Shown: positions 14,082 to 34,161 of the stretch, piece after piece | Layout of the letters: each line of letters opens with the position of its first letter | Numbering within the stretch: the stretch's first letter is position 1 | Origin: Pseudomonadales bacterium | GTDB taxonomy: Bacteria; Pseudomonadota; Gammaproteobacteria; Pseudomonadales; Pseudohongiellaceae | Assembly: GCA_028279115.1 (NCBI GenBank) | Contig: JANQSV010000087.1 | Span: 1 to 44,147 of the forward strand | Reading direction: 5' to 3' | DNA length: 44,147 nt | Notes under the pieces: generated by a model | Seen by the model: the letters and a program-made list of their open reading frames with translations, nothing else | Databases searched by the model: none | Told to the model about the DNA's origin: nothing | Program-made: the position numbers and the translations under genes

Positions 14082-16430
14082 TCAGGGAAGTCGATAGGCG
14101 ATGATATAGCCGCCTTGCGGATCTTCTTCGTCGGCGGGCAGGGCGCGAAAACCGGATCCCGAGGTCGAATTGAAGACCGGAACGGTCACCACCACGGTCT
14201 GTTCGCCGGCAGGCGACAGATAGGTCATCGGCGTCGCATGCGCGGTGAAGGGCAGATCGGCGCGCCACAACTCCTCGCCGTTCATGATATGCGTCGCACG
14301 CACGGAATTGTCGAAAGCGCCCGATGAGAAGATCAGCCCGCCCGCGGTCGTGACCGTGCCGCCGCTTTGCGGTGTGCCGATGGTCAGCGGCACGCGGGTC
14401 GGAATGCCGAAGGGGCCGCTGTCCTTCGCCAGGCCGATCGGACGCTCCCAGAGCAGATCGCCGGTTTCGAGATCGACCGCGGCCATGATGCCGTAAGGCG
14501 GCTGGTTGCAGGGAATGCCGAGCGGCGACATGAAGCGCCGGGTATTGTGGGAATACGGTGTGCCCAACTGGTTGCCCTGGACGCCTTCCGGCAACTCGTC
14601 GCGGGGAATGAGAATCAGCCGGTTACCGACGATCATCGGGTTTACGACCATGATGTTGTTGACCTGATCGACACTGACGCTGCCCCAGTTGTGCCCGCCG
14701 GCATTGCCGGGAAACTGGAAGATCGGTTCGGTGCCGGGTACGGTGAAATGCCCGTCGTAGCGCATTTTCCTGTATTCGATCCGACACCAGAGTTGATCGA
14801 AAGGAGTAACGCCCCACATCATGTTCTCGGTGATGTCGTCGCGGAAGTGAGGCAGTTCGGTGGAAAAGGGCTGCGTCGGCGAAACGTAATCTTCGGGTAC
14901 GCCGCCTTCGGTGGGTACCGGCAATTCCTCCACCGCGAAGATCGGCTCGCCGGTTTCGCGATTCAACACGAAGACTTCGGAGCGCTTGGTCGGAACAAGC
15001 ACAGCCTTGACCATTTCGCCATTGTCTCCGGGCAGATCGATCAGCGTAGGTTGGGAAGGCACATCCCAATCCCAGATGTCATGGTGAACGGTCTGGAAAT
15101 GCCAGCGGGGGGCGCCGGTCTCGCCTTCGATGGCGACCACTGAACTCGCGAATTGATCGCTAACCTCCATGCGGTAGCCGCCGAAATAGTCGGGGGTCTC
15201 GTTGCCCGTGGGCGCGTAGATCAATCCGAGTTCTTCGTCGACGCTGAACAGGCTCCAGACGTTGGGAGTGCCTCGGGTGTAAACCTCTCCGGCCAGCGGT
15301 TCGGTATGGATGCCCGGCCGGCCCATGTCCCAGGCCCAGGCAAACTCGCCGGTGATCGCATTGAAGGCCCGCACCGCGCCCGAAGGTTCGCCCACCGACT
15401 GGTTGTCGAACACCCAGCCGCCGACCACCGCATTGCCGCGCACTATGCCCGGCGGGGATGTCTGGAAGTTGAAGATCAGCGGATCGTTGCCCATGTTGAT
15501 GGTCAGATCGACCTCGCCCTGGTCGCCGAATCCCAGGCAGCGCTCGCCGCTGAGCGCATCGAGCGCGATCAGGCGCGCATCGGTGGTGGCGGTAAGAATT
15601 CGTTCCCGGCAATCGCCCTGGTACTCGGGCGGCGCCGCGTAATATGAAACGCCGCGGCAGCCGGTAGTGAAATAACGCGCGGTTTCAAGATGCTCCGGAT
15701 CGATCAGCGGGTCGAACTGCCAGCGCAATTCGCCGCTGTCGGCATCGAGCGCGATGACCACGTTGCCGCCGGTGCAGACATAGAGCAAATCGCCGAGTTG
15801 CAGCGGTGTCGCCTTGAAGGAGCCGCCCTGCCCTGTGCGATAGGTCCATGCCACTTCGAGATCGGCGACGTTCCCGGCATTGATCTGATCCAGCGGCGAA
15901 TAGCGGCTGCCGCCGCGGTCGTTGCCATAGGCGGGCCAGTCGGTGTGCGTATTGACCGTATTGACGCCGCTGCGCGGCGCCGGGTCATTTACCTCGTAGC
16001 CGGCGTCCAGGAATACGACCAGCGCCGCGACCACCACGGTCGCCGGAACCGACCATCTGGCGATAGCTGATTGCAGCAGCGGCGGCGGCGAACCCTGGTG
16101 CAGCGAATTGCGGAACCAGGGCGTGACAAACCAGAGCCCGATCACGGCGAAGGGCGGAATACGCGGCGCCAGCGCCCATAGATCGGTACCCGCCTCCCAA
16201 AAGGACCAGACGATGGTCGCAACCAGCAAGCCGCCGTACAGCCACGCCCCGGACGGCTGGCGGCGCCAGATGCGATGCGCGCAGGAAAGCAATACCAGCC
16301 CCGCGAGAGCGTAATACAGCGAACCTCCCAGGAAAACGAGCTGCAGGCCGCCAATTACGAGCGGCGCGGCGATCAGAATGAGAATTGCGGGGAAAACGCG
16401 CGGCGGTTTGGAACTGGTCAGCGTATTCAT
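14082..16430 (-). CDS. gcd: membrane-bound PQQ-dependent dehydrogenase, glucose/quinate/shikimate family
   Basis: N-terminal multi-TM anchor (FPAILILIAAPLVIGGLQLVFLGGSLYYALAGLVLL) followed by a PQQ beta-propeller (RYSPLDQINAGNVADLEVAW, repeated W-motifs). 782 aa. Confidence 0.92.
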   Translation of the reverse strand: MNTLTSSKPPRVFPAILILIAAPLVIGGLQLVFLGGSLYYALAGLVLLSCAHRIWRRQPSGAWLYGGLLVATIVWSFWEAGTDLWALAPRIPPFAVIGLWFVTPWFRNSLHQGSPPPLLQSAIARWSVPATVVVAALVVFLDAGYEVNDPAPRSGVNTVNTHTDWPAYGNDRGGSRYSPLDQINAGNVADLEVAWTYRTGQGGSFKATPLQLGDLLYVCTGGNVVIALDADSGELRWQFDPLIDPEHLETARYFTTGCRGVSYYAAPPEYQGDCRERILTATTDARLIALDALSGERCLGFGDQGEVDLTINMGNDPLIFNFQTSPPGIVRGNAVVGGWVFDNQSVGEPSGAVRAFNAITGEFAWAWDMGRPGIHTEPLAGEVYTRGTPNVWSLFSVDEELGLIYAPTGNETPDYFGGYRMEVSDQFASSVVAIEGETGAPRWHFQTVHHDIWDWDVPSQPTLIDLPGDNGEMVKAVLVPTKRSEVFVLNRETGEPIFAVEELPVPTEGGVPEDYVSPTQPFSTELPHFRDDITENMMWGVTPFDQLWCRIEYRKMRYDGHFTVPGTEPIFQFPGNAGGHNWGSVSVDQVNNIMVVNPMIVGNRLILIPRDELPEGVQGNQLGTPYSHNTRRFMSPLGIPCNQPPYGIMAAVDLETGDLLWERPIGLAKDSGPFGIPTRVPLTIGTPQSGGTVTTAGGLIFSSGAFDNSVRATHIMNGEELWRADLPFTAHATPMTYLSPAGEQTVVVTVPVFNSTSGSGFRALPADEEDPQGGYIIAYRLP

Positions 16431-16728: not shown

Positions 16729-17751
16729 CTATTCCGCTGCGGGTTTTGACTTCCGCTGCTTTTCCTTGTGGCGCAGTTTTTCCTGTCGGCGTTCGCGCAT
16801 CAGGCCGGTCATGTCCTGACCGATGTGTTGTTCGCCTCTCGCGTGGGCGAGATCGACCTGGCGTTGGCGCTCGGCGAAACGCTTGGCTCGTTCTCCGGTC
16901 TGGCGTTCATGGCAATGAGGGCAACTGACACCCTTCTCGTAAAGCGGGCTTTCCTTGTCTTCGTCGGAAATGGGCATGCGGCAGGCGTGGCATTGGTCGT
17001 AGGAGCCCGGTTGCAGCCGGTGGTCCACGGTGACGCGGTTATCGAATACGAAACATTCGCCGCGCCAGCGTGAATCTTCCGGCGGCACGCTTTCCAGATA
17101 ACTCAGGATGCCGCCTTGCAGGTGATAGACCTCGTCGAATCCCTGCTGCTTGAGATACGCGGTGGATTTTTCGCAGCGGATGCCGCCGGTGCAGAACATC
17201 GCGATCTTGCGATGCTTCTCCGGATCGAGATTCTTGCCCACGTATTCAGGAAACTCGCGGAAGGAATCGGTTTCCGGGTTGACCGCGTTATCGAAACTGC
17301 CGATTTCCACCTCGTAGCGATTGCGGGTGTCGAGTACGAGCACTGCGGGATCGTCGATCAACTCGTTCCAACGTTCCGGAGCGACGTAGGCGCCGGCCAT
17401 GTGGCGCGGGTCGATGTCCGGCGCACCCATGGTGACGATTTCCCTTTTCAGTTTGACCCGGGTCCGATAGAAAGGATTTTCCTCGCTGCGGGACTCCCTC
17501 GCGCGCAGGTCGCGCAAGCGCGAATCGGCGCGAATTTTCGCGAGCACGGCGTCGATTCCCGCGTGGGAACCGGCGACAGTGCCGTTAATGCCTTCGGCGG
17601 CAAGCAGGACGGTGCCCCGCACATCGTGGCGCTGAAGTGCGTTCAGCAGCGGTTCTCTGAGGGATCGGAAATCGGGCAGCGCGGCGAACTTGTAGAACGT
17701 GCTGACCACTATTGCCGTTGAATCATTCATCGCTGACCATTTCGAAGCCAC
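16729..17751 (-). CDS. trhO: rhodanese-domain protein TrhO/YceA (UPF0176; tRNA U34 hydroxylase family)
   Basis: [15 protein letters not shown]-terminal domain, rhodanese active-site loop [10 protein letters not shown] and a C-terminal Cys cluster (CHAC...CPHC). The start is GTG 17751, and ATG 17730 is an alternative. Confidence 0.88.
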
Positions 17752-17760
17752 TACCCACTA

Positions 17761-17802
17761 CCCCTCCGGGGGAGTCAAATTCGCGAAGCGAATTTGGTGG
17801 GG
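17761..17802. repeat. C-type repeat unit
   Basis: CCCCTCCGGGGGAGTCAAAT-TCGCgaaGCGA-ATTTGGTGGGG, in the 59-bp gap between sseA and trhO. Confidence 0.8.
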
Positions 17803-17810
17803 CCGGGCTG

Positions 17811-18662
17811 CTAATCGGTTACAACCGGCAAATGTCCCGGCGTGCCCCATTCGACCCAGGAACCGTCGTAGACCGAGACATCGTCAAGGCCGGCCTCGTG
17901 GGCCGCCAGCGCGATCACACAGGCAGTGATGCCCGAGCCGCAACTGCTTATGAGGCCGCGCTCGGGAGCGCCGAACTCGGCGAATATCTCGCGCAATTCG
18001 TCCGCCGGTTTCATCACGCCGTTTTCCAGCAGCCTCACGAAAGGCAGATTTTCGGCATTCGGCATATGCCCGCCGCGCAGTCCCGGCCGCGGTTCGGGGT
18101 CGACGCCACGGAAGCGTCCCGGCGAACGGGCGTCGAGTACCCGGCGCGTGTCGTCTTCGAGCGCTTCCAGCACCGCCCGGTAATCGCTGACCAGGTGCGG
18201 TCTGAAGTCGGCAGCGAAATCGCCTTTCGATTCCGCTTCGGCCAGTGAATCGGCCAGCGGCTTGTCCGCCGCAACCCAGGCAGGCAGTCCGCCGCCCAGC
18301 ACCGCGACATTGTCGTGGCCCATGGCGCGAAACATCCACCAGGCCCGCGGACTCGCGTACATGCCGCAATCGTCGTAGACCACCAGGGCCGAAGCGGCGT
18401 TGACGCCGAGCGTACGCACTTTCCGCTCGAAGATTTCAGGGCCTGGCAACATGTGCGGCAGCGAAGTATCCGGCTTGCACACGTTCTTGTCGTAATCGAA
18501 GCGGCGGGCGCCGGGAATGGCCTTGAACTGTCCTTCTGCGTTAACCGAGTTCAGGCCCGGCACTACCGGGGGCATCGAGGCGTCGAGCACGATGAGATTC
18601 GGCGCCGCCAGGTTGGCGGCCAGCCACGCGACATCGACCACTGCTGCGGGTACGGAAATCAT
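17811..18662 (-). CDS. sseA: 3-mercaptopyruvate/thiosulfate sulfurtransferase (tandem rhodanese)
   Basis: 283 aa with two rhodanese domains. Active-site loop CGSGITACV, and RFRGVDPEPRPGLRGGHMPNA is typical of SseA/MST. Confidence 0.9.
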   Translation of the reverse strand: MISVPAAVVDVAWLAANLAAPNLIVLDASMPPVVPGLNSVNAEGQFKAIPGARRFDYDKNVCKPDTSLPHMLPGPEIFERKVRTLGVNAASALVVYDDCGMYASPRAWWMFRAMGHDNVAVLGGGLPAWVAADKPLADSLAEAESKGDFAADFRPHLVSDYRAVLEALEDDTRRVLDARSPGRFRGVDPEPRPGLRGGHMPNAENLPFVRLLENGVMKPADELREIFAEFGAPERGLISSCGSGITACVIALAAHEAGLDDVSVYDGSWVEWGTPGHLPVVTD

Positions 18663-18674
18663 GGTCGGGGAAAT

Positions 18675-19541
18675 CTACAGCAGAACGACGAATTCGGCCA
18701 GTTTCGCCATCAGGCGGGTACTGTTGCGCGGACCGATGCGGATCAACTGCTTGTGTACGGCGTCCGCGTTCTCGAGTTCCGAATCCGCGAACAGGTACAT
18801 CACCGATGGCTTCACCAACTGGAATGGCCCCTCGACGTCGGCGGCCTGCAGGACATTGTTGATCGCCAGGCGCAAGGCGTCGTCGAAATCGCGGCCGCGA
18901 TAGCCGATCTCGGCATAGGCCTGCTGGAACAGCGGCCGCAGCAGCCGGTACAGGGCATAGGCCTGTTCGGAATCCACCGCCACCATCGCGTCGATGAAAC
19001 CGTCGAAACGGGGAAAGGCGTCTTCCTCCATCAGGAACAGGTTCTGATCAAGTTCGCGCACGGGCATTTCGACGCCGACGGGGCGGAAGGGCAGATCGGT
19101 CTGGGGAAACTCGTGGCGACCGACATTCTCGACAAAAACGACGAACTTGCGGATCAACTGATCGTCGGATACCAGGCGCAGCACGGCGGCGCCGTTGCGC
19201 AACGCCTGCAGTCGCTCGCGCACGAAGCCGTCGCTGTCGTTGAGGCTGGGCAGGTCCACTTCCTTTTCCGGAGGTTCCGGTTCGACCGCAGGCTGCGCAG
19301 GGACCTCGACAACCGGTTCGGGCTCTTCGGTCGGTTCAACCGCCGTAACCGCGGGCTGTGCGGGGGGAGAAATCACGCCGGGAGTCGGGGCCGGTTCCGG
19401 CTCGGTCGCAACCGGCGCGGGAAGTTCGATTATCCGGCTGGTGACGCCGACCGGCTCATCGAAGCCGGCACTGAGCCAGATAAGAGCAGCCAGCGACACG
19501 ACCGCGACGCCGGCTATGATGAAAAAGCCAAAACGTTTCAT
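18675..19541 (-). CDS. DUF3014 domain-containing protein
   Basis: N-terminal TM anchor and Pro/Glu-rich linker. Then LPSLNDSDGFVRERL ... FVENV ... PLFQQAYAEIGYRGRDFDD ... VMYLFADSELE ... IRIGPRN, the pattern characteristic of DUF3014. The stop is 12 nt from the sseA start, so they are a likely operon. Confidence 0.8.
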   Translation of the reverse strand: MKRFGFFIIAGVAVVSLAALIWLSAGFDEPVGVTSRIIELPAPVATEPEPAPTPGVISPPAQPAVTAVEPTEEPEPVVEVPAQPAVEPEPPEKEVDLPSLNDSDGFVRERLQALRNGAAVLRLVSDDQLIRKFVVFVENVGRHEFPQTDLPFRPVGVEMPVRELDQNLFLMEEDAFPRFDGFIDAMVAVDSEQAYALYRLLRPLFQQAYAEIGYRGRDFDDALRLAINNVLQAADVEGPFQLVKPSVMYLFADSELENADAVHKQLIRIGPRNSTRLMAKLAEFVVLL

Positions 19542-19579
19542 GACTTATGCATTCCATGTGATCAAGGTCGAGCCGTTCA

Positions 19580-19629
19580 GACTTTCAAAAGCTTCGCTTT
19601 TGATCGGCTGCGCCGACCAGCCTTCACCC
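19580..19629. repeat. B-type repeat unit
   Basis: GACTTTCAAAAGCttcGCTTTTGATCGGCTGCGCCGACCAGCCTTCACCC, between the peroxiredoxin stop and the DUF3014 start. Confidence 0.75.
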
Positions 19630-19665
19630 GGGTTTTCTCAAATCAGCCCATTCATGCAACGATGA

Positions 19666-20199
19666 TCAGATCCGGGGGAAACCCAGCTCTCCCATGATTC
19701 TTGCCATATCCTCGCCGGCGGTTGCCGGGTCGGTTTCCTTGTCAATCTTCAGAATGACGCCATCGGCGCCAATATAGTAGGTCCAGCGATTGGCGAATCC
19801 GACCGGCATCAACGCGCCGTAAGCTTCCACCATATCCTTTTCAGGATTGGCCAGCACCGGAAAGCTGGCGTGATTCTCTTCGGCGAAGGCGGTATTGTCT
19901 TCCAGCGTATCCACGCTGACCATGAAATACGCCACGTCGTATTTCTGGATTTCCTCGGCACTGTCACGCAGCGCCTTGCATTGCATGGTTCAGCCGCCGG
20001 TAAAGGCTTTTGGGAAAAAAGCGATGACAACCGGTTTTTTCCCGGCGAACTGGGAAAGGCTGTACGTGTTGCCGTCAGAGCCCGGGAGAGAAAAGTCCGG
20101 CGCCCTGTCCCCTACTTCCAACGCGGCCGCTGAATGACCAATCAGCGCCGCCGCGAAAAGCGGCGGGAGCCAGGTCAGTCGGCTGGCAATTTTCAACAT
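19666..20199 (-). CDS. bcp: Bcp-type peroxiredoxin (AhpC/TSA family), probable selenoprotein with Sec (TGA 19990-19992) at the peroxidatic position; exported
   Basis: Two same-frame ORFs (19990..20223 and 19666..19986) are separated only by TGA. The joined product ..[44 protein letters not shown].. aligns with E. coli Bcp ..[20 protein letters not shown].. Start ATG 20199 has GGAGG 6 nt upstream, and the N-terminus looks like a signal peptide. Confidence 0.75.
19957..19975 (-). promoter_or_regulatory. SECIS-like hairpin downstream of the in-frame UGA
   Basis: The mRNA reads UGA-ACCAUGCAAUGCAA-GGCGCUG-CGUGA-CAGUGCC. The stem is 7 bp (one G-U pair), and the 5-nt apical loop contains GU. The loop begins 21 nt after the UGA, within the spacing described for bacterial SECIS elements. 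Confidence 0.55.
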
Positions 20200-20288
20200 G
20201 GGTTTCCTCCATTCAGATTTCATTCCGCAGACTGCGGTCGAACGTTGCTGTTTGTACTACGAAACGGGAAATTTGTCTATGCCGAGCT

Positions 20289-20541
20289 GTCATTCCGCGC
20301 GCAGCGAAGCGCAGTCGCAGAATCTTTTGGAGATTCTGCAAGGTTGTTCATGCCATCCATGGCGCGGCTCTGTTGGCTTCGACTATCCCCAGCCTTGCCA
20401 GTCCAGCCGCCAAGCACAGCTTGGCGTCGTTCAGCCTGCGCGCGAAGCTGCGCTTCGCATACGCTTGTCTTCACCCATGGCAAGTTGTTCGGCCCTCAAA
20501 GAGCGTTGCTCTTTGTCGGCTGCGCCGACCGGACCTCACCC
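20289..20541 (+). repeat. Composite A+B intergenic repeat, copy 2 (about 250 bp)
   Basis: Collinear with 2183-2414. Lies directly upstream of the peroxiredoxin start (20199) and downstream of the stop at 20595. Confidence 0.85.
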
Positions 20542-20594
20542 TCGCACGCCCACCGAACTCGCCCCAGCCCGACAGCGACTCGCGCCTCACGCGA

Positions 20595-21593
20595 TCAGAA
20601 CAGCGAGTCCCGGCGACCGCGGCGGAAGTATTGCCGGTTTTCCGCTTCGAGTTGCGCGATCCGGGCGTCTATTTGCGCCAGGGTCTCACTGGACAGTCCG
20701 TCCCCCCGGTCGCGAATCGCCGTCAATCTTTCGATGCCGCTGTTGATGGCGTTCGAATAGCGCGTCAGGGTCGTGAGCTTGTTTCTGCGCTGGGATTCGC
20801 GAAAGCGCGGATTCTCCACTTGCACGTTCACGCATTGCCGCACGGCCTGGCCATTTGGCGCCGGCGCCATGCGGCAGCGCATCTGGTTGACGTAGCGCGG
20901 CACGGTGGCCGGGAAATAGTTGTAAGGCGTATTGGCGACGACGCGCATCATGTAGATGTCGAGTTCGGCCTTGCCACGGACGAGGTTGGCCAGGTCGAGC
21001 GGTCGCGCTTCCGGTTCCTGATCGAGCGCCGTGATTGCGCGCCGGTAAACCGAACCCGCGTCGTCGATGGCCGCCTGCGCGCTCCAACTGCTGTCGCCAA
21101 GCAGATCGTCCCGGATCGCTCTCATTTTCCAGCCGCCCCAGGTTTCGATCGCCGCCAGGTGGCGGCGGTCGGTCAATTCCCAGAGACGGCTCGCCAGGTG
21201 GTAGCGGAAATGGTGGAGGTCGTCCACCGCCTCCCAGTCTGCGAGCCCCTCGTTGCCGGCGATCATGGCGTCGATGATGCGCAGTTGCGATTCGCTGTAG
21301 AGACCTTCGTTGATGCGCGCGATTTCGAGCGCGTCGTTATAGATGGAAACGGACTGTTCGTAATCTTCCAGTTCGAGATAGAAGCCGCCGAGTTCGCCAT
21401 AAGCTTCCTGCAAGGCGGGGTGATAGACGCCGAGTTCGCCGCGCAAATCCTCCACATGCCGTTCGTGCTGATCCAGTTCCCTCGCCAGCGCGAGGGATTC
21501 CTCTTCCGCCTCGGACTGCAATGCAAGCGCGGACTGCCCGGTCAACACCAGCAGCGCCATCGGCAAAACGGAAACGCGGAACGATCTCGTCAT
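20595..21593 (-). CDS. exported hypothetical protein, TPR-like helical repeats
   Basis: Trimmed to ATG 21593 (AGGGGA RBS; MTRSFRVSVLPMALLVLTGQSALA signal peptide). Helical-repeat-like segment YGELGGFYLELEDYEQSVSIYNDALEIARINEGLY. The upstream 81 codons read through repeats. Confidence 0.65.
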   Translation of the reverse strand: MTRSFRVSVLPMALLVLTGQSALALQSEAEEESLALARELDQHERHVEDLRGELGVYHPALQEAYGELGGFYLELEDYEQSVSIYNDALEIARINEGLYSESQLRIIDAMIAGNEGLADWEAVDDLHHFRYHLASRLWELTDRRHLAAIETWGGWKMRAIRDDLLGDSSWSAQAAIDDAGSVYRRAITALDQEPEARPLDLANLVRGKAELDIYMMRVVANTPYNYFPATVPRYVNQMRCRMAPAPNGQAVRQCVNVQVENPRFRESQRRNKLTTLTRYSNAINSGIERLTAIRDRGDGLSSETLAQIDARIAQLEAENRQYFRRGRRDSLF

Positions 21594-21782
21594 GGTCCCC
21601 TGCGGGCTTTCGATGAAATCCAACCGGTTGAATTTACCGCGAAACGGGCCCGGAATCACCCGGTTCCCGTTTTCAGAGTGAGAATACGCCGCATCGGATT
21701 CTGACAGCGGGGGAGGCATGCCTCGCCCCTGCGCGTCATCGGCGCGACAATATGCCACATCGGATTCCGACAGCGGGGAACC

Positions 21783-21788
21783 TATAAT
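21783..21788 (+). promoter_or_regulatory. Candidate -10 box (TATAAT) for the downstream TonB-dependent receptor
   Basis: Perfect TATAAT 34 nt upstream of GTG 21823. No convincing -35 (TCGGAT at 17-bp spacing). Confidence 0.3.
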
Positions 21789-21822
21789 TTCCCCGTTTTC
21801 CCAACGATGCCGGAGTCGCACC

Positions 21823-23991
21823 GTGCCCCTGAACAAATCTCTCCTCGCCGCGGCGGCCGCGCCTTTTTTGCTTGCCGCAGGCGAACCTCTTCTCGCCCAG
21901 GACGAGGAAGTCGAAGAAATTATCGTTATCGGTCGTCAGGAGTTCCTTGAAACCGAATTCGATGCGCGCCGGACCGATTCCGGCGCGGACGCCGCCTTGC
22001 TGATCAACCGTGTTCCCGGCGGCGGCGCCAACCACAACGGCCCTCTGACGGGGCAGATTCAATATCGCGGCATGTTCGGCCCCCGCATCAATGTGCGTAT
22101 CGACGGCATGCTGATTCACGGCGGCGGACCCAACTGGATGGCGCCGCCCTTGCACCATATTCCCGCCGCCTTGATGGAAGACCTTGTCGTGGAACAGGGC
22201 ATAGCTTCGATTTCCACCGGCGGCGGTATCGGGGGCGCCGCCACGGCGCATTGGAAACGTCCCCAATTCAATGACGGCGACGGCTGGGACTGGCATGGCG
22301 ACACCGAATTGTCGGCAGCTTCGGCCGCGGGCAGTACGAGCGGTTCGCTGATTCTCGGCGGCAGCAACGCCAATCACCGGCTTTACGGCATCGGCAATCT
22401 CGACCAGGGCGACAACTATGAATCCGCCAACGGCGAGGTGGCCGCAACGCAATACAGCCGCGCCATCTATGGCGTCGGCTACGGTTTCCAGAGCGGCTCC
22501 CACGAAGTGCTGTTCGACGCCCATCGCATCGAGACCGAGGACAGCGGCACGCCGACCCTGCCCATGGATATCGACTGGTTCGATACCGATACCTTCAATT
22601 TCAGATACAACGGGCAACTCGGGAACCTCGGCGTAGAGTTCGGCGTATACCGGTCGAACATCGAGCACGGCATGAGCAATTTCCTGCTGCGGCCGACTCC
22701 CGATTTCTCCCGCCTGCCGCTGCCTCCGTTCCTCGGCGACGACAAGCGCTTCGCATCCGCGGAAAGCGAAGAATCCGGCTTCCGGCTCGTCTTCGATCTT
22801 GAAGTCGGCCCGGGCGTGCTCGAAATCGGCGCCGAAGGCAAGGACGGCGAGCACGACGTGAGCGTGACCGACCCGGATTTCGCGCCCTTCTTCGTCGAGA
22901 ATTTCAATGACGTGAAAACCGACAGCAAGTCGGCCTTCATCCAATGGTCGGCGATTCTCGATGACGACTGGTATGTCGAGTTCGGCGGCAGGCTCGAACG
23001 CGTGGAAATGAGCGCCGGTGAAATCGATGCTTTCCCCGCCCGCCTGGTGGACATGAATCCCGCCAGGTGGGGCATGGGCACGCCGCCGCGGGCGGTCTGG
23101 ATGCTGCGCCAGGGTTTCAATTCGCGCGAGCGCGCGCAGAACGATGACAACAATGACCTGGTGGCCAAACTGCGTTACCAGTTGACGGCCAACCTGGTCG
23201 TGGAGGCCGGTTACGGCCGCAAGACGCGCTCGCCGCTGTACCAGGAGCGTTACCTCTGGATTCCGCTGGAAATCAACGCCGGACTCGGCGACGGCAACAA
23301 TTATGTCGGCAACCCGGACCTGGCGCCGGAAACATCCGACCAGTTCGAGCTCGGCTTCGACTGGAGCAACGGGTCGGCCTGGTTTTCCCCCCGCTTCTTC
23401 GTCCGGGATGTCGACGATTACATCCAGGGCGTACCTGCGACCCACATGGCGGTTGTCGGCGTCAGCCGCAACGCCAACGGAGACCCAACTCCGCTGATGT
23501 TCACCAATACCGAGGCGGAGTTCCGCGGCTTCGACCTGACCTTCGGCTTTCCCATCGACGATCGATGGCGGGTCGAAGGCATGGCTTCGCAGGTGAACGC
23601 CGAACGCGGCGATGTTTCGGACCACCTGTATCGGGTAAATCCGAACAACATCCGCGCATCGCTGCTATATGAGACAGGCAACTTCTCCGCCCGCATCGAA
23701 CAGGTCGTGGTGATGGAACAGGACAATATTTCCCACACCAACACCTACGATCCGATGAATCCGAACAACAGTTCCGATCCAACCGACGGCTACAACCTGA
23801 CCAACGTCTACCTGGACTGGCTGACCGGCCAGGGATTCACTTTCACCCTGGGCGCGGAAAACCTGTTCGATACCGACTACGTCGACCACCTGACCGGCTT
23901 CAATCGCGTCCTGAACAGCGTGGTGCCGCAAGGCAGCCGCATGTACGGTCGGGGCATCAACCTGTTCGGCCGCGTCCAGTACCAGTGGTAG
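21823..23991 (+). CDS. TonB-dependent receptor
   Basis: GTG 21823 with GGAG 7 nt upstream. Signal-like LLAAAAAPFLLAAGEPLLAQ, then EEIIVIGRQ, plug and barrel, and a C-terminal ..GRVQYQW. The GGGPNWMAPPLHHIP segment is reminiscent of copper-type (OprC/NosA-like) receptors, but that assignment is weak. Confidence 0.9.
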   Translation: MPLNKSLLAAAAAPFLLAAGEPLLAQDEEVEEIIVIGRQEFLETEFDARRTDSGADAALLINRVPGGGANHNGPLTGQIQYRGMFGPRINVRIDGMLIHGGGPNWMAPPLHHIPAALMEDLVVEQGIASISTGGGIGGAATAHWKRPQFNDGDGWDWHGDTELSAASAAGSTSGSLILGGSNANHRLYGIGNLDQGDNYESANGEVAATQYSRAIYGVGYGFQSGSHEVLFDAHRIETEDSGTPTLPMDIDWFDTDTFNFRYNGQLGNLGVEFGVYRSNIEHGMSNFLLRPTPDFSRLPLPPFLGDDKRFASAESEESGFRLVFDLEVGPGVLEIGAEGKDGEHDVSVTDPDFAPFFVENFNDVKTDSKSAFIQWSAILDDDWYVEFGGRLERVEMSAGEIDAFPARLVDMNPARWGMGTPPRAVWMLRQGFNSRERAQNDDNNDLVAKLRYQLTANLVVEAGYGRKTRSPLYQERYLWIPLEINAGLGDGNNYVGNPDLAPETSDQFELGFDWSNGSAWFSPRFFVRDVDDYIQGVPATHMAVVGVSRNANGDPTPLMFTNTEAEFRGFDLTFGFPIDDRWRVEGMASQVNAERGDVSDHLYRVNPNNIRASLLYETGNFSARIEQVVVMEQDNISHTNTYDPMNPNNSSDPTDGYNLTNVYLDWLTGQGFTFTLGAENLFDTDYVDHLTGFNRVLNSVVPQGSRMYGRGINLFGRVQYQW

Positions 23992-26422: not shown

Positions 26423-26451
26423 TTCGAAGTATTGTTGACGATAGGGACCAA

Positions 26452-28008
26452 ATGCCAAAAAAGACCCTCAACAACGGCGCTAACCTCGGTTTCGAAGCCC
26501 AGCTATGGGCCGCAGCAGACAAGCTGCGCGGCAACATGGAGCCGTCCGACTACAAACATGTCGCCTTGGGCCTGATTTTCCTGAAATACATCTCGGATGC
26601 CTCCGAGGCCAAGCGAGCGGAATTGCTGAAAGACGATCTGGCCGATGCCGAGGATCCCGAGGAATACCTCGCCGAAAACGTCTTCTGGGTGCCGAGGGAG
26701 GCTCGCTGGTCGCATCTGCAAGCTGCGGCAAAGGAAGCGATGATCGGCAAGCACATCGACAACGCCATGCTTGCGATTGAGGCCAAAAATGCCTCACTTA
26801 AGGGCGTCCTGCCGAAAGAATACGCTCGCCCGGCACTCAACAAGGTCATGCTCGGCGAACTTATCGATCTTGTGAGCGGTATCGGCATGGCCGAGGAGTC
26901 TGATCGCTCCCGCGACATTCTCGGTCGGGTCTACGAATATTTCCTCGGCAGCTTCGCCGGTTCCGAGGGCAAACGCGGCGGCGAGTTTTACACGCCCCGC
27001 TCCGTTGTCCGGCTGCTCGTCGAGATGCTGGAACCCTACAAAGGCCGCGTCTACGACCCTTGCTGCGGCTCCGGCGGCATGTTCGTCCAGTCCGAGAAGT
27101 TCGTCGAAGAGCATGGCGAGCGCATCGGCGACATCGCCATCTACGGGCAGGAAAGCAATTACACGACCTGGCGGCTCGCGAAGATGAACCTGGCGGTGCG
27201 CGGCATCGACGCCGACATCCGTTGGAACAACGAAGGCAGTTTCCATAGAGACGAGTTGCCAGACCTGAAGGCCGACTTCATCCTCGCCAATCCACCCTTC
27301 AATATCTCCGATTGGGGCGGCGACCGATTGCGGGAAGACGCGCGCTGGAAGTTCGGCGTGCCGCCGAAGGGCAATGCCAATTATGCGTGGCTTCAGCATA
27401 TGCATCATCATCTCGCGCCGAACGGCACGGCGGGCGTGGTGCTCGCCAACGGCTCGATGTCGTCGGCGCAGTCCGGCGAAGGCGCAATCCGCCGCGCCAT
27501 GGTCGAGGCCGACGTTGTGGATTGCATGGTCGCCCTGCCCGGCCAGCTTTTCTATTCCACCCAGATTCCCGCCTGTCTCTGGTTTCTCGCCCGCAACAAG
27601 AATCCCGATAATGGCTGGCGCGACCGGCGCGGCGAAGTGCTATTCATCGACGCCCGCAAGCATGGGCGCATGGTTGACCGAACCCGCAGGGAGTTTACCG
27701 ACGAGGACATCGCCCAAATCGCCGACACATATCACGCCTGGCGCAGCACGCGGGGCACGGCCAGATACATGGACGAGCCGGGATTCTGCAAATCCGTGAC
27801 TTTGGAAGAGATCGGGCGGCACAATCATGTGCTGACACCGGGTCGCTATGTCGGCGCGGCGGCGGCTGAGGATGACGGCGAGCCGTTTGACGACAAGATG
27901 AAACGGTTGGTCGCCCAACTGCGCGGACAGCGGGCAGAAGGGGTGAAGCTGGACGCAGCGATTGCGGCGAATCTTAAATCGCTGGGCTATTGGGAGCATG
28001 GCGAATGA
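26452..28008 (+). CDS. hsdM: Type I restriction-modification system methyltransferase subunit HsdM
   Basis: N-terminal HsdM domain ([32 protein letters not shown]), AdoMet motif DPCCGSGGM and catalytic NPPFN. Confidence 0.95.
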
Positions 28009-28256
28009 GCATGAACGTTGTCGAACTGATTGAACTTTTGAGAGGCTATCCGCCCGAACTCCGTGTAGTCGTGGACGGATACGAAGAAGGTTATGACGAT
28101 CTGTCGCCGGATCAACTGTCGGTGGCAAGAATCAGCCTCGACACTGGCAAGTCATCTTGGCAGGGAAAACATGGGGAAGCGGTCGACTTGGCTGGGACGC
28201 CCTCTGATGCCGTCAAGGTTGTCAATGCCTTGGTCCTGCGCCGCACATCCCAGTGA
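28005..28256 (+). CDS. hypothetical protein (83 aa), translationally coupled to hsdM
   Basis: ATG 28005 overlaps the hsdM stop (ATGA). The product [32 protein letters not shown]... matches no family I recognise. Confidence 0.5.
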
Positions 28257-28272
28257 TGGAGGTCTATGGGAA

Positions 28273-28695
28273 ATGGACAAGATAGACTATTCAAAATTTC
28301 AATTATCCCTGAAACGTCTCGAAGAACAGTACGAGAATCACCGACACGCCGATACATCCCTCCCGGAAATTACCCGCGAAGGTATTGCGGAGTCTGTCAT
28401 TCAACGCTTCAAGACTTGTTACGATTGTCTTTGGAAAGTGCTGAAGCGGTATTTGATCGTGGAATTGGGAGTCGCGGACCCGCCCAACAGTCCCAAACCC
28501 GTGTTTCGTCTCGCACGTGAAAACCAAGTGCTTTCCAGCGCACTTGAGGAATGGTTCGGCTATGCGGAAGCCCGAACCAACACATCGCACGACTATGATG
28601 GTGAAAAAGCCAAAGCGTGTCTGGCTTTGACACCGAACTTCATCGCCGATGCAGTCGGACTTTACGAGACAATGACCGGCCAGTCGTGGCAATGA
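28273..28695 (+). CDS. HEPN-domain protein, HI0074-type nucleotidyltransferase substrate-binding family (putative RNase toxin)
   Basis: ATG 28273 with GGAGG 10 nt upstream. FQLSLKRLEE..., IQRFKTCYDCLWKVLKRYL and an intact Rx4H motif (RTNTSH, codons 28573-28590). Confidence 0.8.
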   Translation: MDKIDYSKFQLSLKRLEEQYENHRHADTSLPEITREGIAESVIQRFKTCYDCLWKVLKRYLIVELGVADPPNSPKPVFRLARENQVLSSALEEWFGYAEARTNTSHDYDGEKAKACLALTPNFIADAVGLYETMTGQSWQ

Positions 28696-30296
28696 CCCGA
28701 TCAATAGATCTTTCGGTTCGAGAACAGGAGATGGTTCGGAAATTGCTCGCGCGATTTCTCCCGAATACCGAAGCCTGGGTGTATGGCTCCCGCGTCCACT
28801 GGACCTCGCGCCCCGAATCGGATCTCGACATGGTTGTGTTCACAACGCCCGAGCAGGCTGGTGCGGTATCGAAACTTAGGGAGGCGTTCGACGAAAGCGA
28901 TCTGACGTTTCGTGTTGATCTTTTCGTTTGGGACAACGTGCCCCCAGAGTTTCGCCACGAAATCGAGCGGGAACATGTGGTGTTGGTTGAGTCGGCGACC
29001 TGCTCTAGAGGATGGAAGCAGCGCCAACAACTCGGCGACTGCATTTTAATGAACGAAGATACTTACTCGCCAAAGGAAAAATGGCCTTTCGTAAATTATC
29101 TTGAGACCGGAAACATCTCGGAAAACCGAATAGAGAAGATTTTGCACATTATCCCGGAGCGAGAAAAGCTGCCCAGTCGCGCCCGCCGCAAGGCCCGATC
29201 AGGAGGTGAAATAGTCTACTCAACAGTGCGCCCAAATCAGAGACACTTTGGCATATTGCGCGAAGTACCGGAGAACTTTCTTGCTTCTACAGAATTCGCC
29301 ATTTTTCGGGGTAAAGAGGCCATTGCGGACACTGGGTTTATCTACCGGTTTCTAATCCAGGACCATGTCGTTGAGCGACTTCATACTATCGCCGAGCACA
29401 GCACATCAGCCTACCCGTCAATCAGACCTGCGGATATCGAGCGTTTGGAGATTTCCCTACCGCCCGTCGCTGAACAACGCACCATCGCCAACATTCTCGG
29501 CAAACTTGATGACAAGATCGAGTTGAACCGCCAGATGAACGAAACGCTGGAGGCGATGGCACGAGCGATCTTCAAGGACTGGTTCGTCGATTTCGGTCCC
29601 ACCCGCGCCAAGTCCAAAGGTCTCGCTCCATACTTGACCCCCGAACTTTGGGACCTATTCCCCGACGCACTGGATGACGAAGATAAGCCGGTTGGATGGT
29701 CGTTAGCTGAGTTGACGGCAGTCGCCGACATCAATCCAGAATCTTGGTCCAGAATAAACTGCCCGGAAGAAGTTGAGTATGTGGACCTCGCGAACACAAA
29801 GTGGGGGACAATTGAGGCCACGCACCGATTCGATTGGCAACAAGCGCCAAGTCGGGCAAAACGCGTTCTTCGCCCCGGAGATACAATCGTAGGAATGGTT
29901 AGGCCCGGTAACGGGTCTTTTGCATTTATCGGCGTACCCGGCCTAACCGGAAGTACTGGATTTGCAGTTCTCAGACCGTTAGAAAATCGTCACAGTGAAG
30001 TGGTGTATCTCGCTGCGACTGATCCTGAAAACATCAAGCGCCTTGCTAATCTGGCTGATGGTGCGGCCTATCCGTCAGTTCGTCCTGAAGTCGTGGGAGC
30101 AACCGAGATCGCCGTGTCAGACGACGCGGTTATCGCCAGCTTTTCGGCACTTGTTTCGCCCTTGTTTGACCGTATGGAGACCAACAAAGTGGAGGAAAAC
30201 GCGCTTGTCCAGACCCGCGATTTCCTTCTGCCCAAACTAATTTCCGGTGAAATTCGCCTGAACCAAGCAAAGAAACTCGAGGAGCCAGCATCATGA
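28692..30296 (+). CDS. hsdS: In-frame fusion: MNT nucleotidyltransferase (HI0073-type, about 100 aa) plus full-length Type I specificity subunit HsdS
   Basis: ATG 28692 overlaps the HEPN stop (ATGA). The MNT motif is GSRVHWTSRPESDLDMVV (GSx10DxD) ... VDLFVWD. There is no stop before the HsdS-like GWKQRQQLGDCI. HsdS central conserved region AEQRTIANILGKLDDKIELNRQMNETLEAMARAIFKDWFVDF and distal region TRDFLLPKLISGEIRL are both present. I checked the frame codon by codon across 28920-29050. Confidence 0.8.
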   Translation: MTRSIDLSVREQEMVRKLLARFLPNTEAWVYGSRVHWTSRPESDLDMVVFTTPEQAGAVSKLREAFDESDLTFRVDLFVWDNVPPEFRHEIEREHVVLVESATCSRGWKQRQQLGDCILMNEDTYSPKEKWPFVNYLETGNISENRIEKILHIIPEREKLPSRARRKARSGGEIVYSTVRPNQRHFGILREVPENFLASTEFAIFRGKEAIADTGFIYRFLIQDHVVERLHTIAEHSTSAYPSIRPADIERLEISLPPVAEQRTIANILGKLDDKIELNRQMNETLEAMARAIFKDWFVDFGPTRAKSKGLAPYLTPELWDLFPDALDDEDKPVGWSLAELTAVADINPESWSRINCPEEVEYVDLANTKWGTIEATHRFDWQQAPSRAKRVLRPGDTIVGMVRPGNGSFAFIGVPGLTGSTGFAVLRPLENRHSEVVYLAATDPENIKRLANLADGAAYPSVRPEVVGATEIAVSDDAVIASFSALVSPLFDRMETNKVEENALVQTRDFLLPKLISGEIRLNQAKKLEEPAS

Positions 30297-32511: not shown

Positions 32512-32602
32512 GTAATCAACCGCCCCCAAATCACCGAGCGCCACGCGAACCGGCGAATGCGCCCGGTCTGGTGATTCCGAAACTTTTGGCGGGTGAACGT
32601 CC

Positions 32603-32811: not shown

Positions 32812-34161
32812 ATGACTGGCGCCGCCTCGGACCCGAAAGAATGGCAGCAGCACATCGGCGGCAAAGCGCGCCGAGAGTTGCTTGCCAAGCGGGCCAAAGA
32901 TCCTGACGACCCGCTCAAGCTGGTAATCGTCCGAGACATGTGGCTGACGGGCTTTGACGTACCGAGCATGCACACTATGTACGTCGACAAGCCCATGCGA
33001 GGGCACGGGCTCATGCAGGCAATCGCGCGAGTGAACCGCGTGTTTCGCGACAAGCCTGCCGGACTGGTCGTGGACTACATCGGCATTGCCCAGAATCTGA
33101 AATCGGCGCTCAGCCAGTATTCGGGCGAGGATCGGCAATACGCCGGCATCGACGAATCCGAAGCTGTCGCCGTGATGATGGAAAAGTACGAGATCGTATG
33201 CGGCATGTTCCACGGTTTCGACTACCGGGCCGGGCTCATCGGCACTCCACAGGAGCGGCTTGTTGCTCTCGCCCATGCAATCGAGTGGGTGCTAGAAATG
33301 CAGCAACGCGAGGCAGCCAGGGAATCGACCGAAGAAGGCAAGAAACAAGCGCATCGCCGGTTCAACGATGCAGTACTCGCCCTAACCAAGGCGTTCGCTC
33401 TGGCGGCTGCGAGCGACGAGGCGCGCAGCATCCGCGATGAGGTCGGCTTCTTCCAGACGGTTCGGTCGGCGCTCGCCAAGAGCGCTCCCGGCTCGGGAAC
33501 CTCTTCCCCCCAGCGGGATCTTGCGGTGCAGCAGATCATCAGCCGCGCCGTCGTCTCGACCGATATCATCGATATTCTCGAAGCCGCTGGGTTGGAATCG
33601 CCGGACATCTCCATTCTCTCCGACGAGTTCCTCGAAGAGGTTCAGGGAATGGAAAAGAAGAACCTTGCCATGGAGGCACTTCGAAAACTCATCAACGGCG
33701 AGATTCGCTCGCAAAGCCGAGTAAACGTCGTGCAGACTCGAGCTTTTTCCGACCGGGTAGAGGAAGCAATCGCCCGCTACCATACCAACGCCATAACAAC
33801 CGCGGAGGTCATCCAGCGGCTGATCGAACTTGCCAAGGACATCCGCGCCGCGCACAAACGCAGCGAGGAGGAAGGGCTTACACAGGAGGAAATCGCCTTC
33901 TACGATGCATTGGCTCAGAACGAAAGCGCTGTCGAGGTCATGAGTAATCAGCACCTTCGCGTAATTGCTCATGAGCTATTGAGCAGCCTGAAGAACAAAG
34001 CCTCCGTCGATTGGCAGCACCGCGAATCGGCGCGGGCGCGAATGCGTGTTCTCGTCAAACGCATACTCCGCAAGCACGGCTATCCGCCCGACCTCCAGGA
34101 CGCCGCCGTACAGACCGTCTTGCAACAGGCCGAGGTTCTCTCGGCGAAATGGGCCGCATGA
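32812..34161 (+). pseudogene. hsdR: hsdR remnant: C-terminal ~45% of a Type I restriction subunit
   Basis: Begins in the late helicase region ([42 protein letters not shown]). Runs through the C-terminal helical domain ([19 protein letters not shown]...[18 protein letters not shown]). The nuclease domain and helicase motifs I-IV are missing, and only about 300 bp separate it from the previous gene. Confidence 0.85.

What the first reader, a model, noticed from the sequence alone, without database searches (positions are those of the whole stretch)
19666..20223. TGA at the peroxidatic-Cys codon of a Bcp-type peroxiredoxin plus a SECIS-like hairpin: a probable selenoprotein split into two ORFs
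The ORF track shows two same-strand, same-frame ORFs (20223..19990 and 19986..19666) separated only by TGA (19990-19992) and one ACC codon. Read through, they give one full-length AhpC/TSA (Bcp-type) peroxiredoxin. Its ..[13 protein letters not shown]-[TGA]-TMQCKALRD.. lines up with E. coli Bcp ..[23 protein letters not shown].. The TGA therefore sits exactly on the peroxidatic Cys. The resolving Cys five residues later is retained, and similarity continues to the C-terminus, including the conserved Arg in [10 protein letters not shown]. Neither half could be a functional thioredoxin-fold protein alone. Fourteen nt after the UGA the mRNA can fold GGCGCUG-CGUGA-CAGUGCC (19975..19957). That is a 7-bp stem with GU in the apical loop, and the loop starts 21 nt after UGA, which fits bacterial SECIS geometry. 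GGAGG sits 6 nt before ATG 20199, and the N-terminus looks like a signal peptide, so an exported, expressed protein is plausible. Sec-containing Prx and Prx-like proteins are known from marine selenoproteome surveys, but gene callers routinely miss them.
Basis: partly seen in the sequence, partly recalled or inferred. Interest (0 to 1): 0.85.

Follow-up and report, generated by a model that had tools for sequence, protein, structure and literature searches.

The report
Selenocysteine peroxiredoxin gene split by annotation
The two adjacent ORFs are one gene for a probably exported peroxiredoxin whose catalytic residue is selenocysteine encoded by UGA; the call is correct, but this marine selenoprotein type was already catalogued in 2005-2008 and gene callers routinely cut it in two.

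Summary
On the minus strand, ORFs 20223..19990 and 19986..19666 share a frame and are separated by TGA (19992..19990) plus ACC. Read through from ATG 20199 they give a 177-aa AhpC/TSA peroxiredoxin. The TGA falls on the peroxidatic Cys of solved BCP/AhpE structures.

The same TGA occurs in 88 of 100 related loci (55-91% identity), including 48 species-representative genomes, mostly uncultured Pseudohongiella and other Pseudomonadales. Other homologues carry TGC or TGT. Both halves are under strong purifying selection (dN/dS 0.06-0.16).

The hairpin 19975..19957 meets every criterion of the published bacterial SECIS model and shows compensatory changes. Its core codons are frozen in TGA forms. 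Syntenic Cys forms encode the same peptide with other codons and have no hairpin.

Corrections: the second Cys is 4 residues after Sec (UxxxC), not 5. The window's hairpin alone is not statistically unusual (z = -1.0).

I could not test for selA/B/C/D, because the rest of the genome cannot be read with these tools.

Sequences with this exact motif and hairpin are already listed as Sec-peroxiredoxins in the Sargasso Sea (2005) and GOS (2008) supplements.

The parts
19666..20199 (-). Complete selenoprotein CDS: 177 codons (Sec at codon 70) plus stop TGA 19668..19666. An AhpC/TSA (BCP/PrxQ-like) peroxiredoxin.
   Evidence: Relatives have the upstream half called as 68-69 aa, which fits a start at ATG 20199 rather than 20223.
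20206..20210 (-). Shine-Dalgarno-like GGAGG, 6 nt upstream of ATG 20199.
   Evidence: Read directly from the sequence.
20122..20199 (-). Predicted signal peptide (residues 1-26, [26 protein letters not shown]), with an A-x-A site before the conserved mature start LEVGD.
   Evidence: Homologues have N-termini that vary in sequence but are always basic then hydrophobic and end in AxA just before LEVGD. Solved Prx structures and the Pfam domain start at residues 27-29. No signal-peptide predictor was available, so this is an inference.
19999..20013 (-). Codons P63-K-A-F-T67 of the universal Prx active-site motif PxxxTxxC/U.
   Evidence: The motif is as described in PMC13188914.
19990..19992 (-). 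In-frame TGA, proposed Sec70, at the peroxidatic (CP) position.
   Evidence: It aligns to CP of 2ywn and AhpE. It is TGA in 88 of 100 related loci and TGC/TGT in the other 12.
19978..19980 (-). TGC, Cys74, the candidate resolving Cys four residues after Sec (U-x-x-x-C).
   Evidence: Cys is present at +4 in all 106 full-length hits among the 120 best database hits and in all loci examined.
19957..19975 (-). SECIS-type hairpin: 7-bp stem (19975..19969 with 19963..19957) and 5-nt apical loop CGUGA (19968..19964). The loop starts 21 nt after UGA.
   Evidence: RNAalifold predicts the same helix. It is 96% paired in 39 distinct sequences. Three of 7 pairs show double-sided changes, and 0 of 500 shuffles reach the covariation score. 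Codons +6..+10 are invariant at the nucleotide level. All bSECIS model criteria are met.
19786..19788 (-). CGC, Arg138, the conserved active-site Arg of peroxiredoxins (NRWTYYIG).
   Evidence: It aligns to the Arg of 'ARITFVID' in 3drn and 'NRGTFVV' in AhpE.

Best explanation
One gene (20199..19666, minus strand) encodes a 177-residue peroxiredoxin of the BCP/PrxQ-like branch of the AhpC/TSA family, and its peroxidatic residue is selenocysteine. During translation the UGA at codon 70 is recoded. The mRNA hairpin 17-35 nt downstream (7-bp stem, loop CGUGA) acts as a bacterial SECIS. It recruits SelB-GTP-Sec-tRNASec to the ribosome, so Sec is inserted instead of termination. An N-terminal signal peptide probably directs the protein to the cell envelope. 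There Sec70 reduces peroxides to form a selenenic acid. Cys74 then resolves this as a selenenylsulfide, which a thiol-disulfide reductant recycles. What is shown here: the gene's integrity, the Sec/Cys alternation, selection on both halves, and the conserved, covarying SECIS-type hairpin. What is inferred: actual Sec insertion, export, the U70-C74 redox couple, and the identity of the reductant.
For: (1) Pfam AhpC-TSA 4e-31. The best solved relatives are BCP/PrxQ and AhpE, with the TGA aligned on CP and the motif PxxxTxxU and the Arg conserved. (2) The TGA sits at the same codon in 40 of 48 loci and 48 of 52 species-representative genomes, at 55-91% amino-acid identity to the window. The other 12 loci have TGC or TGT. 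Of the 120 best database proteins, 98 have Cys there, 14 are the C-terminal fragment, and 8 carry Trp from a code-4 mistranslation of TGA (L103 confirms TGA). (3) All 27 distinct CDS have exactly one in-frame stop. dN/dS is 0.06-0.16 in both the N- and C-terminal halves, with dS from 0.4 to saturation. (4) The hairpin is at a fixed offset in every TGA form and RNAalifold recovers it. In 39 distinct sequences it is 96.0% paired. Pair 18-36 is GC:20/AU:10/CG:2, pair 19-35 is GC:30/UA:3/UG:2, and pair 24-30 is GC:37/CG:2. The covariation score is 0.216 against 0.079 +/- 0.013 for shuffles (0 of 500 reach it), and slid controls collapse. Loop positions 1-4 (CGUG) are invariant. (5) Codons +6..+10 (Ala, Leu, Arg, Asp, Ser; 2- to 6-fold degenerate) use a single codon in all 27 distinct CDS (26 for Ser). 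Only 2% of other conserved degenerate codons do so, and their mean synonymous entropy is 1.11 bits. (6) Natural controls: the syntenic Cys-form orthologues L104 (KALRDS encoded by GCC TTG CGA GAC AGC), L105 and L084 lack the hairpin. (7) All four criteria of the published bSECIS model are met: loop 3-9 nt, stem 4-16 bp, G in the first two loop positions, 16-37 nt spacing, and MFE <= -7.5 (criteria; values). (8) TGA is also the commonest ordinary stop in the window (22 of 34 ORFs), so this is not a TGA-reassigned genome. (9) Sequences with the same motif and the same hairpin DNA were published as Sec-peroxiredoxins.
Against: No selA, selB, selD or tRNA-Sec was seen in the window or in the 1.23 Mb of related loci held. 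That is only a 44-kb window plus syntenic flanks, so it says little about the genome. The window's hairpin alone is not unusual (z = -1.0). The outermost pair is unpaired in 7 of 39 sequences. One Cys form (P0048, L101/L102) keeps an intact hairpin, so the hairpin is not strictly exclusive to TGA forms. I read that one as a fossil SECIS from a recent Sec-to-Cys change. There is no experimental evidence of Se incorporation for this subfamily.
Confidence: 0.92

Rival explanations
1. Nonsense pseudogene: a former Cys-peroxiredoxin gene inactivated by a TGC-to-TGA mutation and now decaying.
For: Annotation pipelines call two fragments. No Sec machinery was found in the sequence available.
Against: The same TGA persists in 88 of 100 loci, down to 55% identity. 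There is no second stop or frameshift in 27 distinct CDS, and dN/dS is 0.06-0.16 both upstream and downstream of the TGA at saturating dS. A decaying pseudogene would show dN/dS near 1 and further lesions.
Confidence: 0.01
2. Sec-independent read-through: the UGA is suppressed by a near-cognate tRNA (Trp, Cys or Gly), or TGA is reassigned in this organism, giving a non-seleno protein.
For: Some gene callers did translate it as Trp (8 of 120 database entries). Sec machinery is not demonstrated here.
Against: TGA is the main ordinary stop codon in the window (22 of 34). The Trp entries are code-4 calls on short contigs, e.g. the 1.26-kb contig behind P0001. Trp or Gly at the peroxidatic position would kill catalysis, yet the gene is under purifying selection. 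A covarying hairpin that fits the SelB-dependent SECIS model has no role in near-cognate suppression. The alternation is specifically with Cys.
Confidence: 0.04
3. A genuinely split protein: a 69-aa N-terminal and a 106-aa C-terminal polypeptide are made separately (restart at ATG 19986) and reassemble.
For: An ATG follows the TGA after one codon in the window.
Against: That Met is not conserved. TGA-form relatives have Leu, Gln, Arg, Ile or Ala there (TLQC, TQQC, TRQC, TIEC, TAEC), so there is no restart codon. The split would also remove the catalytic residue itself, and no RBS precedes 19986.
Confidence: 0.01
4. Sequencing or assembly error that created a spurious TGA in this contig.
For: None specific.
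Against: The identical codon is found in dozens of independent assemblies from different projects and technologies, including closed long-read chromosomes, and in 2005-2008 Sanger reads.
Confidence: 0.005

Closest known systems
Marine 'Prx' selenoprotein family (TxxU motif, pfam00578/COG1225) of Zhang & Gladyshev: Sargasso Sea 2005 (PMC1088965) and GOS 2008 (PMC2398784)
   Same: Same domain, same TxxU redox motif and Sec at the peroxidatic position. The supplements contain near-identical sequences (e.g. AACY01800057...[29 protein letters not shown]) with the same downstream DNA, TGA ACTATGCAATGTAAAGCGCTGCGTGACAGTGC. 'KAFTGGU' occurs 21 times in the GOS file.
   Different: Nothing essential. 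Those were anonymous reads. Here the gene sits in a genomic context (TPR, Prx, DUF3014, two rhodanese-domain genes) and in a named lineage (Pseudohongiella/Pseudohongiellaceae MAGs).
BCP/PrxQ peroxiredoxins (E. coli Bcp; Sulfolobus Bcp1 3drn; 2ywn) and M. tuberculosis AhpE
   Same: They are the best solved-structure matches (E 1e-16 to 1e-13). They share the PxxxTxxC active site, the conserved Arg and the monomer-sized single domain.
   Different: Sec replaces CP. The second Cys is at CP+4, not CP+5 as in 2ywn and, from my own knowledge, in E. coli Bcp. There is an N-terminal signal-peptide-like extension. The score is below the NCBIfam cutoff for the Bcp equivalog (80.6 against 140).
PrxU, the experimentally shown Sec-peroxiredoxin of Eubacterium acidaminophilum (NCBIfam NF040737 peroxi_PrxU)
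   Same: A bacterial peroxiredoxin with Sec at the peroxidatic position, decoded through a downstream SECIS.
   Different: A different Prx subfamily: the score against the PrxU model is 39.6 against a cutoff of 270. From my own knowledge, PrxU is an AhpC/Prx1-type cytoplasmic enzyme of an anaerobic Firmicute.
Bacterial SECIS consensus model (bSECISearch; summarised in PMC13188914), prototype E. coli fdhF
   Same: A stem-loop immediately downstream of UGA inside the ORF. Loop 5 nt, stem 7 bp, G then U at loop positions 2-3, 21 nt spacing, MFE about -12 kcal/mol.
   Different: It is a short, simple hairpin. No conserved lower stem or bulged U was detected in the alignment. SelB binding is not tested.

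Membership tests
Bacterial selenoprotein gene (SelB/SECIS-dependent UGA recoding) | In-frame UGA aligned with a catalytic Cys in homologues | tested here: met
   TGA in 88 of 100 loci and TGC/TGT in 12 at the same codon. 98 Cys forms among the 120 best database hits. The codon aligns to CP of solved Prx structures.
Bacterial selenoprotein gene (SelB/SECIS-dependent UGA recoding) | Coding conservation continues on both sides of the UGA | tested here: met
   dN/dS is 0.06-0.16 in both halves, and there is a single in-frame stop in each of 27 distinct CDS.
Bacterial selenoprotein gene (SelB/SECIS-dependent UGA recoding) | SECIS stem-loop downstream of UGA that fits the bSECIS model (loop 3-9 nt, stem 4-16 bp, G in the first two loop positions, 16-37 nt spacing, MFE <= -7.5) | tested here: met
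   Loop CGUGA, 7 bp, 21 nt, -11.7 to -12 kcal/mol. The criteria are quoted from PMC13188914.
Bacterial selenoprotein gene (SelB/SECIS-dependent UGA recoding) | The structure, not just the sequence, of the SECIS is conserved (covariation; absent from Cys orthologues) | tested here: met
   Three of 7 pairs have double-sided changes, and 0 of 500 shuffles reach the covariation score. Core codons are frozen. The hairpin is absent from Cys forms L104, L105 and L084. One exception, L101/L102, keeps it.
Bacterial selenoprotein gene (SelB/SECIS-dependent UGA recoding) | selA, selB, selC (tRNA-Sec) and selD present in the same genome | not testable with these tools
   None in the 44-kb window or in 1.23 Mb of related loci.
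Bacterial selenoprotein gene (SelB/SECIS-dependent UGA recoding) | Selenium demonstrably incorporated at the UGA position | not testable with these tools
   This needs 75Se labelling or mass spectrometry.
Peroxiredoxin (AhpC/TSA, PF00578) | Domain match above the Pfam gathering score | tested here: met
   108 bits against a cutoff of 26, covering profile positions 1-122 of 124.
Peroxiredoxin (AhpC/TSA, PF00578) | Active-site PxxxTxxC(U) motif and the conserved Arg | tested here: met
   P63-K-A-F-T67-G-G-U70 and R138 align to the corresponding residues of 3drn, 2ywn and AhpE.
BCP/PrxQ subfamily | Closest relatives are BCP/PrxQ; the equivalog-level model is reached | tested here: inconclusive
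   The best PDB hits are BCPs, but NCBIfam PRK09437 scores 80.6 against a cutoff of 140, and PrxQ (Deinococcus) 52.9 against 260.
BCP/PrxQ subfamily | Resolving Cys five residues after CP (CxxxxC) in helix alpha2, as in the atypical 2-Cys BCPs | tested here: not met
   The spacing here is U-x-x-x-C (70, 74) in all forms. The CR of 2ywn aligns to K75.
PrxU (NF040737) | Score above the curated cutoff | tested here: not met
   39.6 against 270.
Published marine Sec-'Prx' (TxxU) family | Same motif and Sec position as the listed member sequences | tested here: met
   Exact strings KAFTGGU and GGUTMQC occur in the Sargasso Sea and GOS supplementary sequence files, under the 'Peroxiredoxin' header in the Sargasso Sea file.

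The most novel reading that the evidence does not exclude
The most novel reading still open concerns biology that the old read-level catalogues could not see. This would be a cell-envelope (signal-peptide-bearing) selenoperoxiredoxin using an unusual U-x3-C selenenylsulfide couple, conserved across Pseudohongiellaceae next to DUF3014 and two rhodanese-domain genes. The family has switched between Sec and Cys at least six times and left at least one fossil SECIS. That makes it a natural system for studying why Sec is kept or lost at a peroxidatic site.
Probability: 0.45. Interest if true: 0.35.

Novelty: already known. Interest (0 to 1): 0.2.

Why it matters
The value is mainly in annotation. 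In 48 species-representative genomes the gene is not readable as one ORF under the standard code. In the loci whose gene calls I saw it is called as two fragments, and in public protein sets it appears as a 106-aa fragment or with Trp at the active site. No NCBIfam model reaches its cutoff for it. Recognising it adds a selenoprotein, and by implication the Sec-decoding trait, to uncultured Pseudohongiella-like marine and sponge-associated Gammaproteobacteria. The interleaved Sec and Cys orthologues, with and without the hairpin, are a ready-made comparative set for SECIS evolution. It does not reveal a new mechanism or a new family.

Tried and rejected
(1) Sec machinery. ARAGORN and Rfam on the window found nothing. 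Pfam on 30 window ORFs found no SelA, SelB or SelD. ARAGORN on the first 48 fetched loci found no tRNA. I rejected this because only the 120 best hits are listed, so a distant bait would almost certainly not reach this lineage.
(2) A scan for other conserved in-frame TGAs in the window and all loci recovered only the Prx (groups of 79 and 9 loci). The other groups were Arg/Pro/Ala-rich wrong-frame artefacts.
(3) A look-up of the window's own contig record failed.
(4) A literature search for Pseudohongiella plus selenocysteine gave 0 papers, and no BSepDB supplement is held.
(5) My first assumption, that all full-length database hits were Cys forms, was wrong. Eight are TGA forms translated as Trp, and I recounted.
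(6) I considered structure prediction and skipped it, because sequence-level matches to solved BCP structures already fix the fold and the tool returns no coordinates for measuring the U70-C74 distance.
Caveat: the related-locus scans are seeded with exact peptide words from the query and so favour close relatives. The 88 of 100 figure is therefore not an unbiased Sec:Cys frequency, and a few loci are the same contig held in two collections.

Full report
OBSERVATION. On the minus strand the window reads ...GCC TTT ACC GGC GGC TGA ACC ATG CAA TGC AAG GCG CTG CGT GAC AGT GCC.... ORFs 20223..19990 and 19986..19666 are in the same frame and are separated only by TGA (19992..19990) and ACC. GGAGG (20210..20206) lies 6 nt before ATG 20199. 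Relatives have the upstream piece called as 68-69 aa, which fits that start. Read through from 20199, the product is 177 aa and matches AhpC-TSA (4e-31, profile 1-122 of 124) and Redoxin (5e-23).

Two details need correction. First, the second Cys is four, not five, residues after the TGA (U70-T-M-Q-C74). In the HMMER alignment to 2ywn (C-T-K-E-M-C), that protein's resolving Cys falls on our K75. Second, the window's hairpin by itself is not beyond chance in this 60% GC sequence: MFE -12 kcal/mol, z = -1.0, and 30 of 200 shuffles fold as well.

WHAT THE PROTEIN IS. The closest solved structures are BCP/PrxQ peroxiredoxins (3drn 1.4e-16, 2ywn 1.2e-15) and M. tuberculosis AhpE. The TGA aligns on their peroxidatic Cys. 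The motif P63-x-x-x-T67-x-x-U70 and Arg138 (NRWTYY) are in place. No NCBIfam model reaches its cutoff: Bcp equivalog 80.6 against 140, and the known selenoprotein model PrxU 39.6 against 270.

The first 26 residues ([26 protein letters not shown]) precede the part that aligns to structures. In homologues this segment varies in sequence but is always basic then hydrophobic, and it ends in A-x-A just before an invariant LEVGD. That is the signature of a cleaved signal peptide. This is an inference, because no predictor was available.

IS THE TGA CONSERVED? The database search was the first clue. The closest relatives (83-93% identical) were all 106-aa proteins covering only the C-terminal 60% of the query, several of them on 3.4-3.5 Mb contigs. 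Their DNA shows the same split: 68-69 aa, then TGA, one codon, then 106 aa. The synteny is also the same: TPR, Prx, DUF3014, rhodanese, UPF0176/rhodanese (window genes).

Across the first 48 fetched loci (43 of them from the metagenome scan) the codon at this position is TGA in 40 and TGC in 8. Across 52 species-representative genomes it is TGA in 48 and TGT or TGC in 4. TGA forms range from 91% down to 55% amino-acid identity to the window. Most TGA-form genomes are MAGs labelled uncultured Pseudohongiella, Pseudohongiellaceae, Pseudomonadales or Gammaproteobacteria, including closed chromosomes. One is a Vicinamibacterales MAG.

Of the 120 best database proteins, 98 are full-length with Cys at this position and 14 are the C-terminal fragment. 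Eight are full-length with Trp. For P0001 the DNA (L103) has TGA, so these are code-4 mistranslations on short contigs. On a rough NJ tree the Sec and Cys forms are interleaved, with at least 6 switches. The locus scans are seeded with exact words from the query and so favour close relatives. The 88 of 100 figure is therefore not a population frequency.

IS IT A LIVE GENE? All 27 distinct, ungapped CDS have exactly one in-frame stop, the TGA. Pairwise against the window, dN/dS is 0.06-0.09 in the 44 codons upstream and 0.06-0.16 in the 104 codons downstream, with dS from 0.4 to saturation. This excludes a pseudogene. TGA is also the commonest ordinary stop in the window (22 of 34 ORFs), so the genome does not reassign TGA. 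The Met after TGA-ACC is replaced by Leu, Gln, Arg, Ile or Ala in other TGA forms. The downstream half therefore has no conserved restart codon, which excludes a split protein.

THE HAIRPIN. Every TGA form can fold a hairpin at the same offset, 17-35 nt after the first base of TGA. RNAalifold predicts the same 7-bp helix from the alignment. In 39 distinct sequences, 96.0% of cells are paired. Pair 18-36 is GC:20, AU:10, CG:2. Pair 19-35 is GC:30, UA:3, UG:2. Pair 24-30 is GC:37, CG:2. The covariation score is 0.216 against 0.079 +/- 0.013 for shuffles (0 of 500 reach it), and sliding the 3' arm by 1-3 nt destroys pairing. Several of these paired changes also alter the protein (Ala to Ser with Ala to Asp; ALRDSA to SLRASG), so the structure is kept at the cost of amino-acid change. 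Loop positions 1-4 (CGUG) are invariant.

Codons +6 to +10 (GCG CTG CGT GAC AGT; 2- to 6-fold degenerate) use one codon in all 27 distinct CDS (26 for Ser). Only 2% of the other 101 conserved degenerate codons are invariant, and their mean synonymous entropy is 1.11 bits.

The natural controls are decisive against 'codon conservation'. L104 is a syntenic TGT (Cys) orthologue that encodes the same K-A-L-R-D-S with AAA GCC TTG CGA GAC AGC and has no hairpin. L105 (the gene for P0024, named Pseudohongiella spirulinae) and L084 also lack it. One Cys form, P0048 (L101/L102), nests among the Sec forms on the tree and keeps an intact hairpin. I read it as a fossil SECIS after a recent TGA-to-TGC change.

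The element meets all criteria of the published bacterial SECIS model quoted in PMC13188914. Those are loop 3-9 nt (here 5), stem 4-16 bp (7), G within the first two loop positions and usually followed by G or U (C-G-U), 16-37 nt between UGA and the loop (21), and MFE <= -7.5 (about -12).

MECHANISM. The best-supported reading has four steps. SelB bound to Sec-tRNASec is recruited by this hairpin and inserts Sec at codon 70. The full-length protein is exported. Sec70 attacks peroxide. Cys74, conserved at +4 in every Sec and Cys form seen, resolves the selenenic acid as a selenenylsulfide, which a thiol reductant recycles. What is shown here: gene integrity, Sec/Cys alternation, and the conserved, covarying SECIS-type hairpin. 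What is inferred: Sec insertion itself, export, the U70-C74 couple, and the reductant.

WHAT COULD NOT BE TESTED. The window has no tRNA, no Rfam hit and no sel gene. The first 48 fetched loci hold no tRNA. The 1.23 Mb of related loci hold no SelA/B/D homologue. No other conserved TGA-containing gene lies in these neighbourhoods. All of this sequence is the same syntenic region, so the negative result carries little weight. The tools cannot read the rest of those chromosomes.

COMPARISON WITH WHAT IS KNOWN. [quoted passage not shown] They were among the top families in GOS (253 genes). The supplementary sequence files of both papers contain this very subfamily. One example is AACY01800057, [71 protein letters not shown], with the DNA TGA ACTATGCAATGTAAAGCGCTGCGTGACAGTGC. 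'KAFTGGU' occurs 21 times in the GOS file. The kind, the subfamily and even the hairpin sequence are therefore already on record as a predicted selenoprotein. It is not PrxU. It also departs from textbook BCP in its UxxxC spacing and its signal peptide.

VERDICT. Novelty is low because the family is already known. The practical point is that this gene is mis-annotated in public data for dozens of genomes, as two fragments or with Trp at the active site, and lacks a dedicated annotation model. Interest 0.2.

Noticed in passing
L101:921-1462 (also L102), the gene for P0048: This Cys-form (TGC) homologue nests among the Sec forms and still has an intact SECIS-like hairpin (GCA CTG CGT GAC AGT GCT, with the G-U pair improved to A-U). 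Its signal-peptide-like leader is interrupted by an in-frame TAA three codons before a new start (MGLEVG...). Its neighbours are different too (UbiB upstream, peptidase M1 downstream). It looks like a recent Sec-to-Cys conversion with a fossil SECIS and possibly loss of export.
   Followed up: partly
Database proteins P0001-P0004, P0006, P0016, P0069, P0093; DNA checked in L103:553-1107: Eight of the 120 best public hits are full-length proteins with Trp at the active site (GGWTMQC). For P0001 the DNA (L103) has TGA. A gene caller evidently applied genetic code 4 to short metagenome contigs, so these public entries carry a wrong residue at the catalytic position.
   Followed up: yes
window 16729-21836 (minus strand): The gene order is conserved in both Sec- and Cys-form genomes: TPR protein (21836..20595), Prx, DUF3014 (19541..18675), a two-domain rhodanese (18662..17811), and a UPF0176_N + rhodanese (TrhO-like) protein (17751..16729). 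Whether DUF3014 or the sulfurtransferases work with the peroxiredoxin is unknown.
   Followed up: partly
window 25748-34161 (plus strand): A type I restriction-modification locus that looks rearranged. It holds hsdM (26452..28008) and an ORF combining nucleotidyltransferase (Polbeta) and HsdS specificity domains (28617..30296), preceded by an NTase-substrate-binding (HEPN-like) gene (28093..28695). A DUF4357 gene and a RhuM/Fic gene follow. The HsdR ORF (32812..34161) has only the C-terminal domains, so hsdR appears truncated.
   Followed up: no
window 36504-37891 (plus strand): Two abutting ORFs match separate parts of the PQQ-dehydrogenase profile (positions 76-363 and 504-595 of 595). This is probably a degraded paralogue of the intact 782-aa PQQ dehydrogenase at 16430..14082. 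The first ORF ends in TAA, not TGA, so this is not a second selenoprotein candidate.
   Followed up: no
L093 (CBDCVL010000006.1, labelled Vicinamibacterales MAG); compare L039: A TGA form with the divergent, fully compensated hairpin variant (CUCGCUC-CGUGA-GAGCGGG) sits on a 489-kb contig assigned to Acidobacteriota. Either the Sec-Prx subfamily extends beyond Gammaproteobacteria, by horizontal transfer or ancient origin, or the bin label is wrong.
   Followed up: no
L041:2600-2650 (Cys form, TGC): A distant Cys-form homologue from a GC-rich metagenome contig can also fold a 7-bp hairpin at the same offset, but with an 8-nt loop lacking the CGUG motif (GGCGCUG-AAGGAAAG-CGGCGCC). Its near-identical relative L042 does not. 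This is probably chance in GC-rich sequence, and it shows why a hairpin in one sequence proves little.
   Followed up: no
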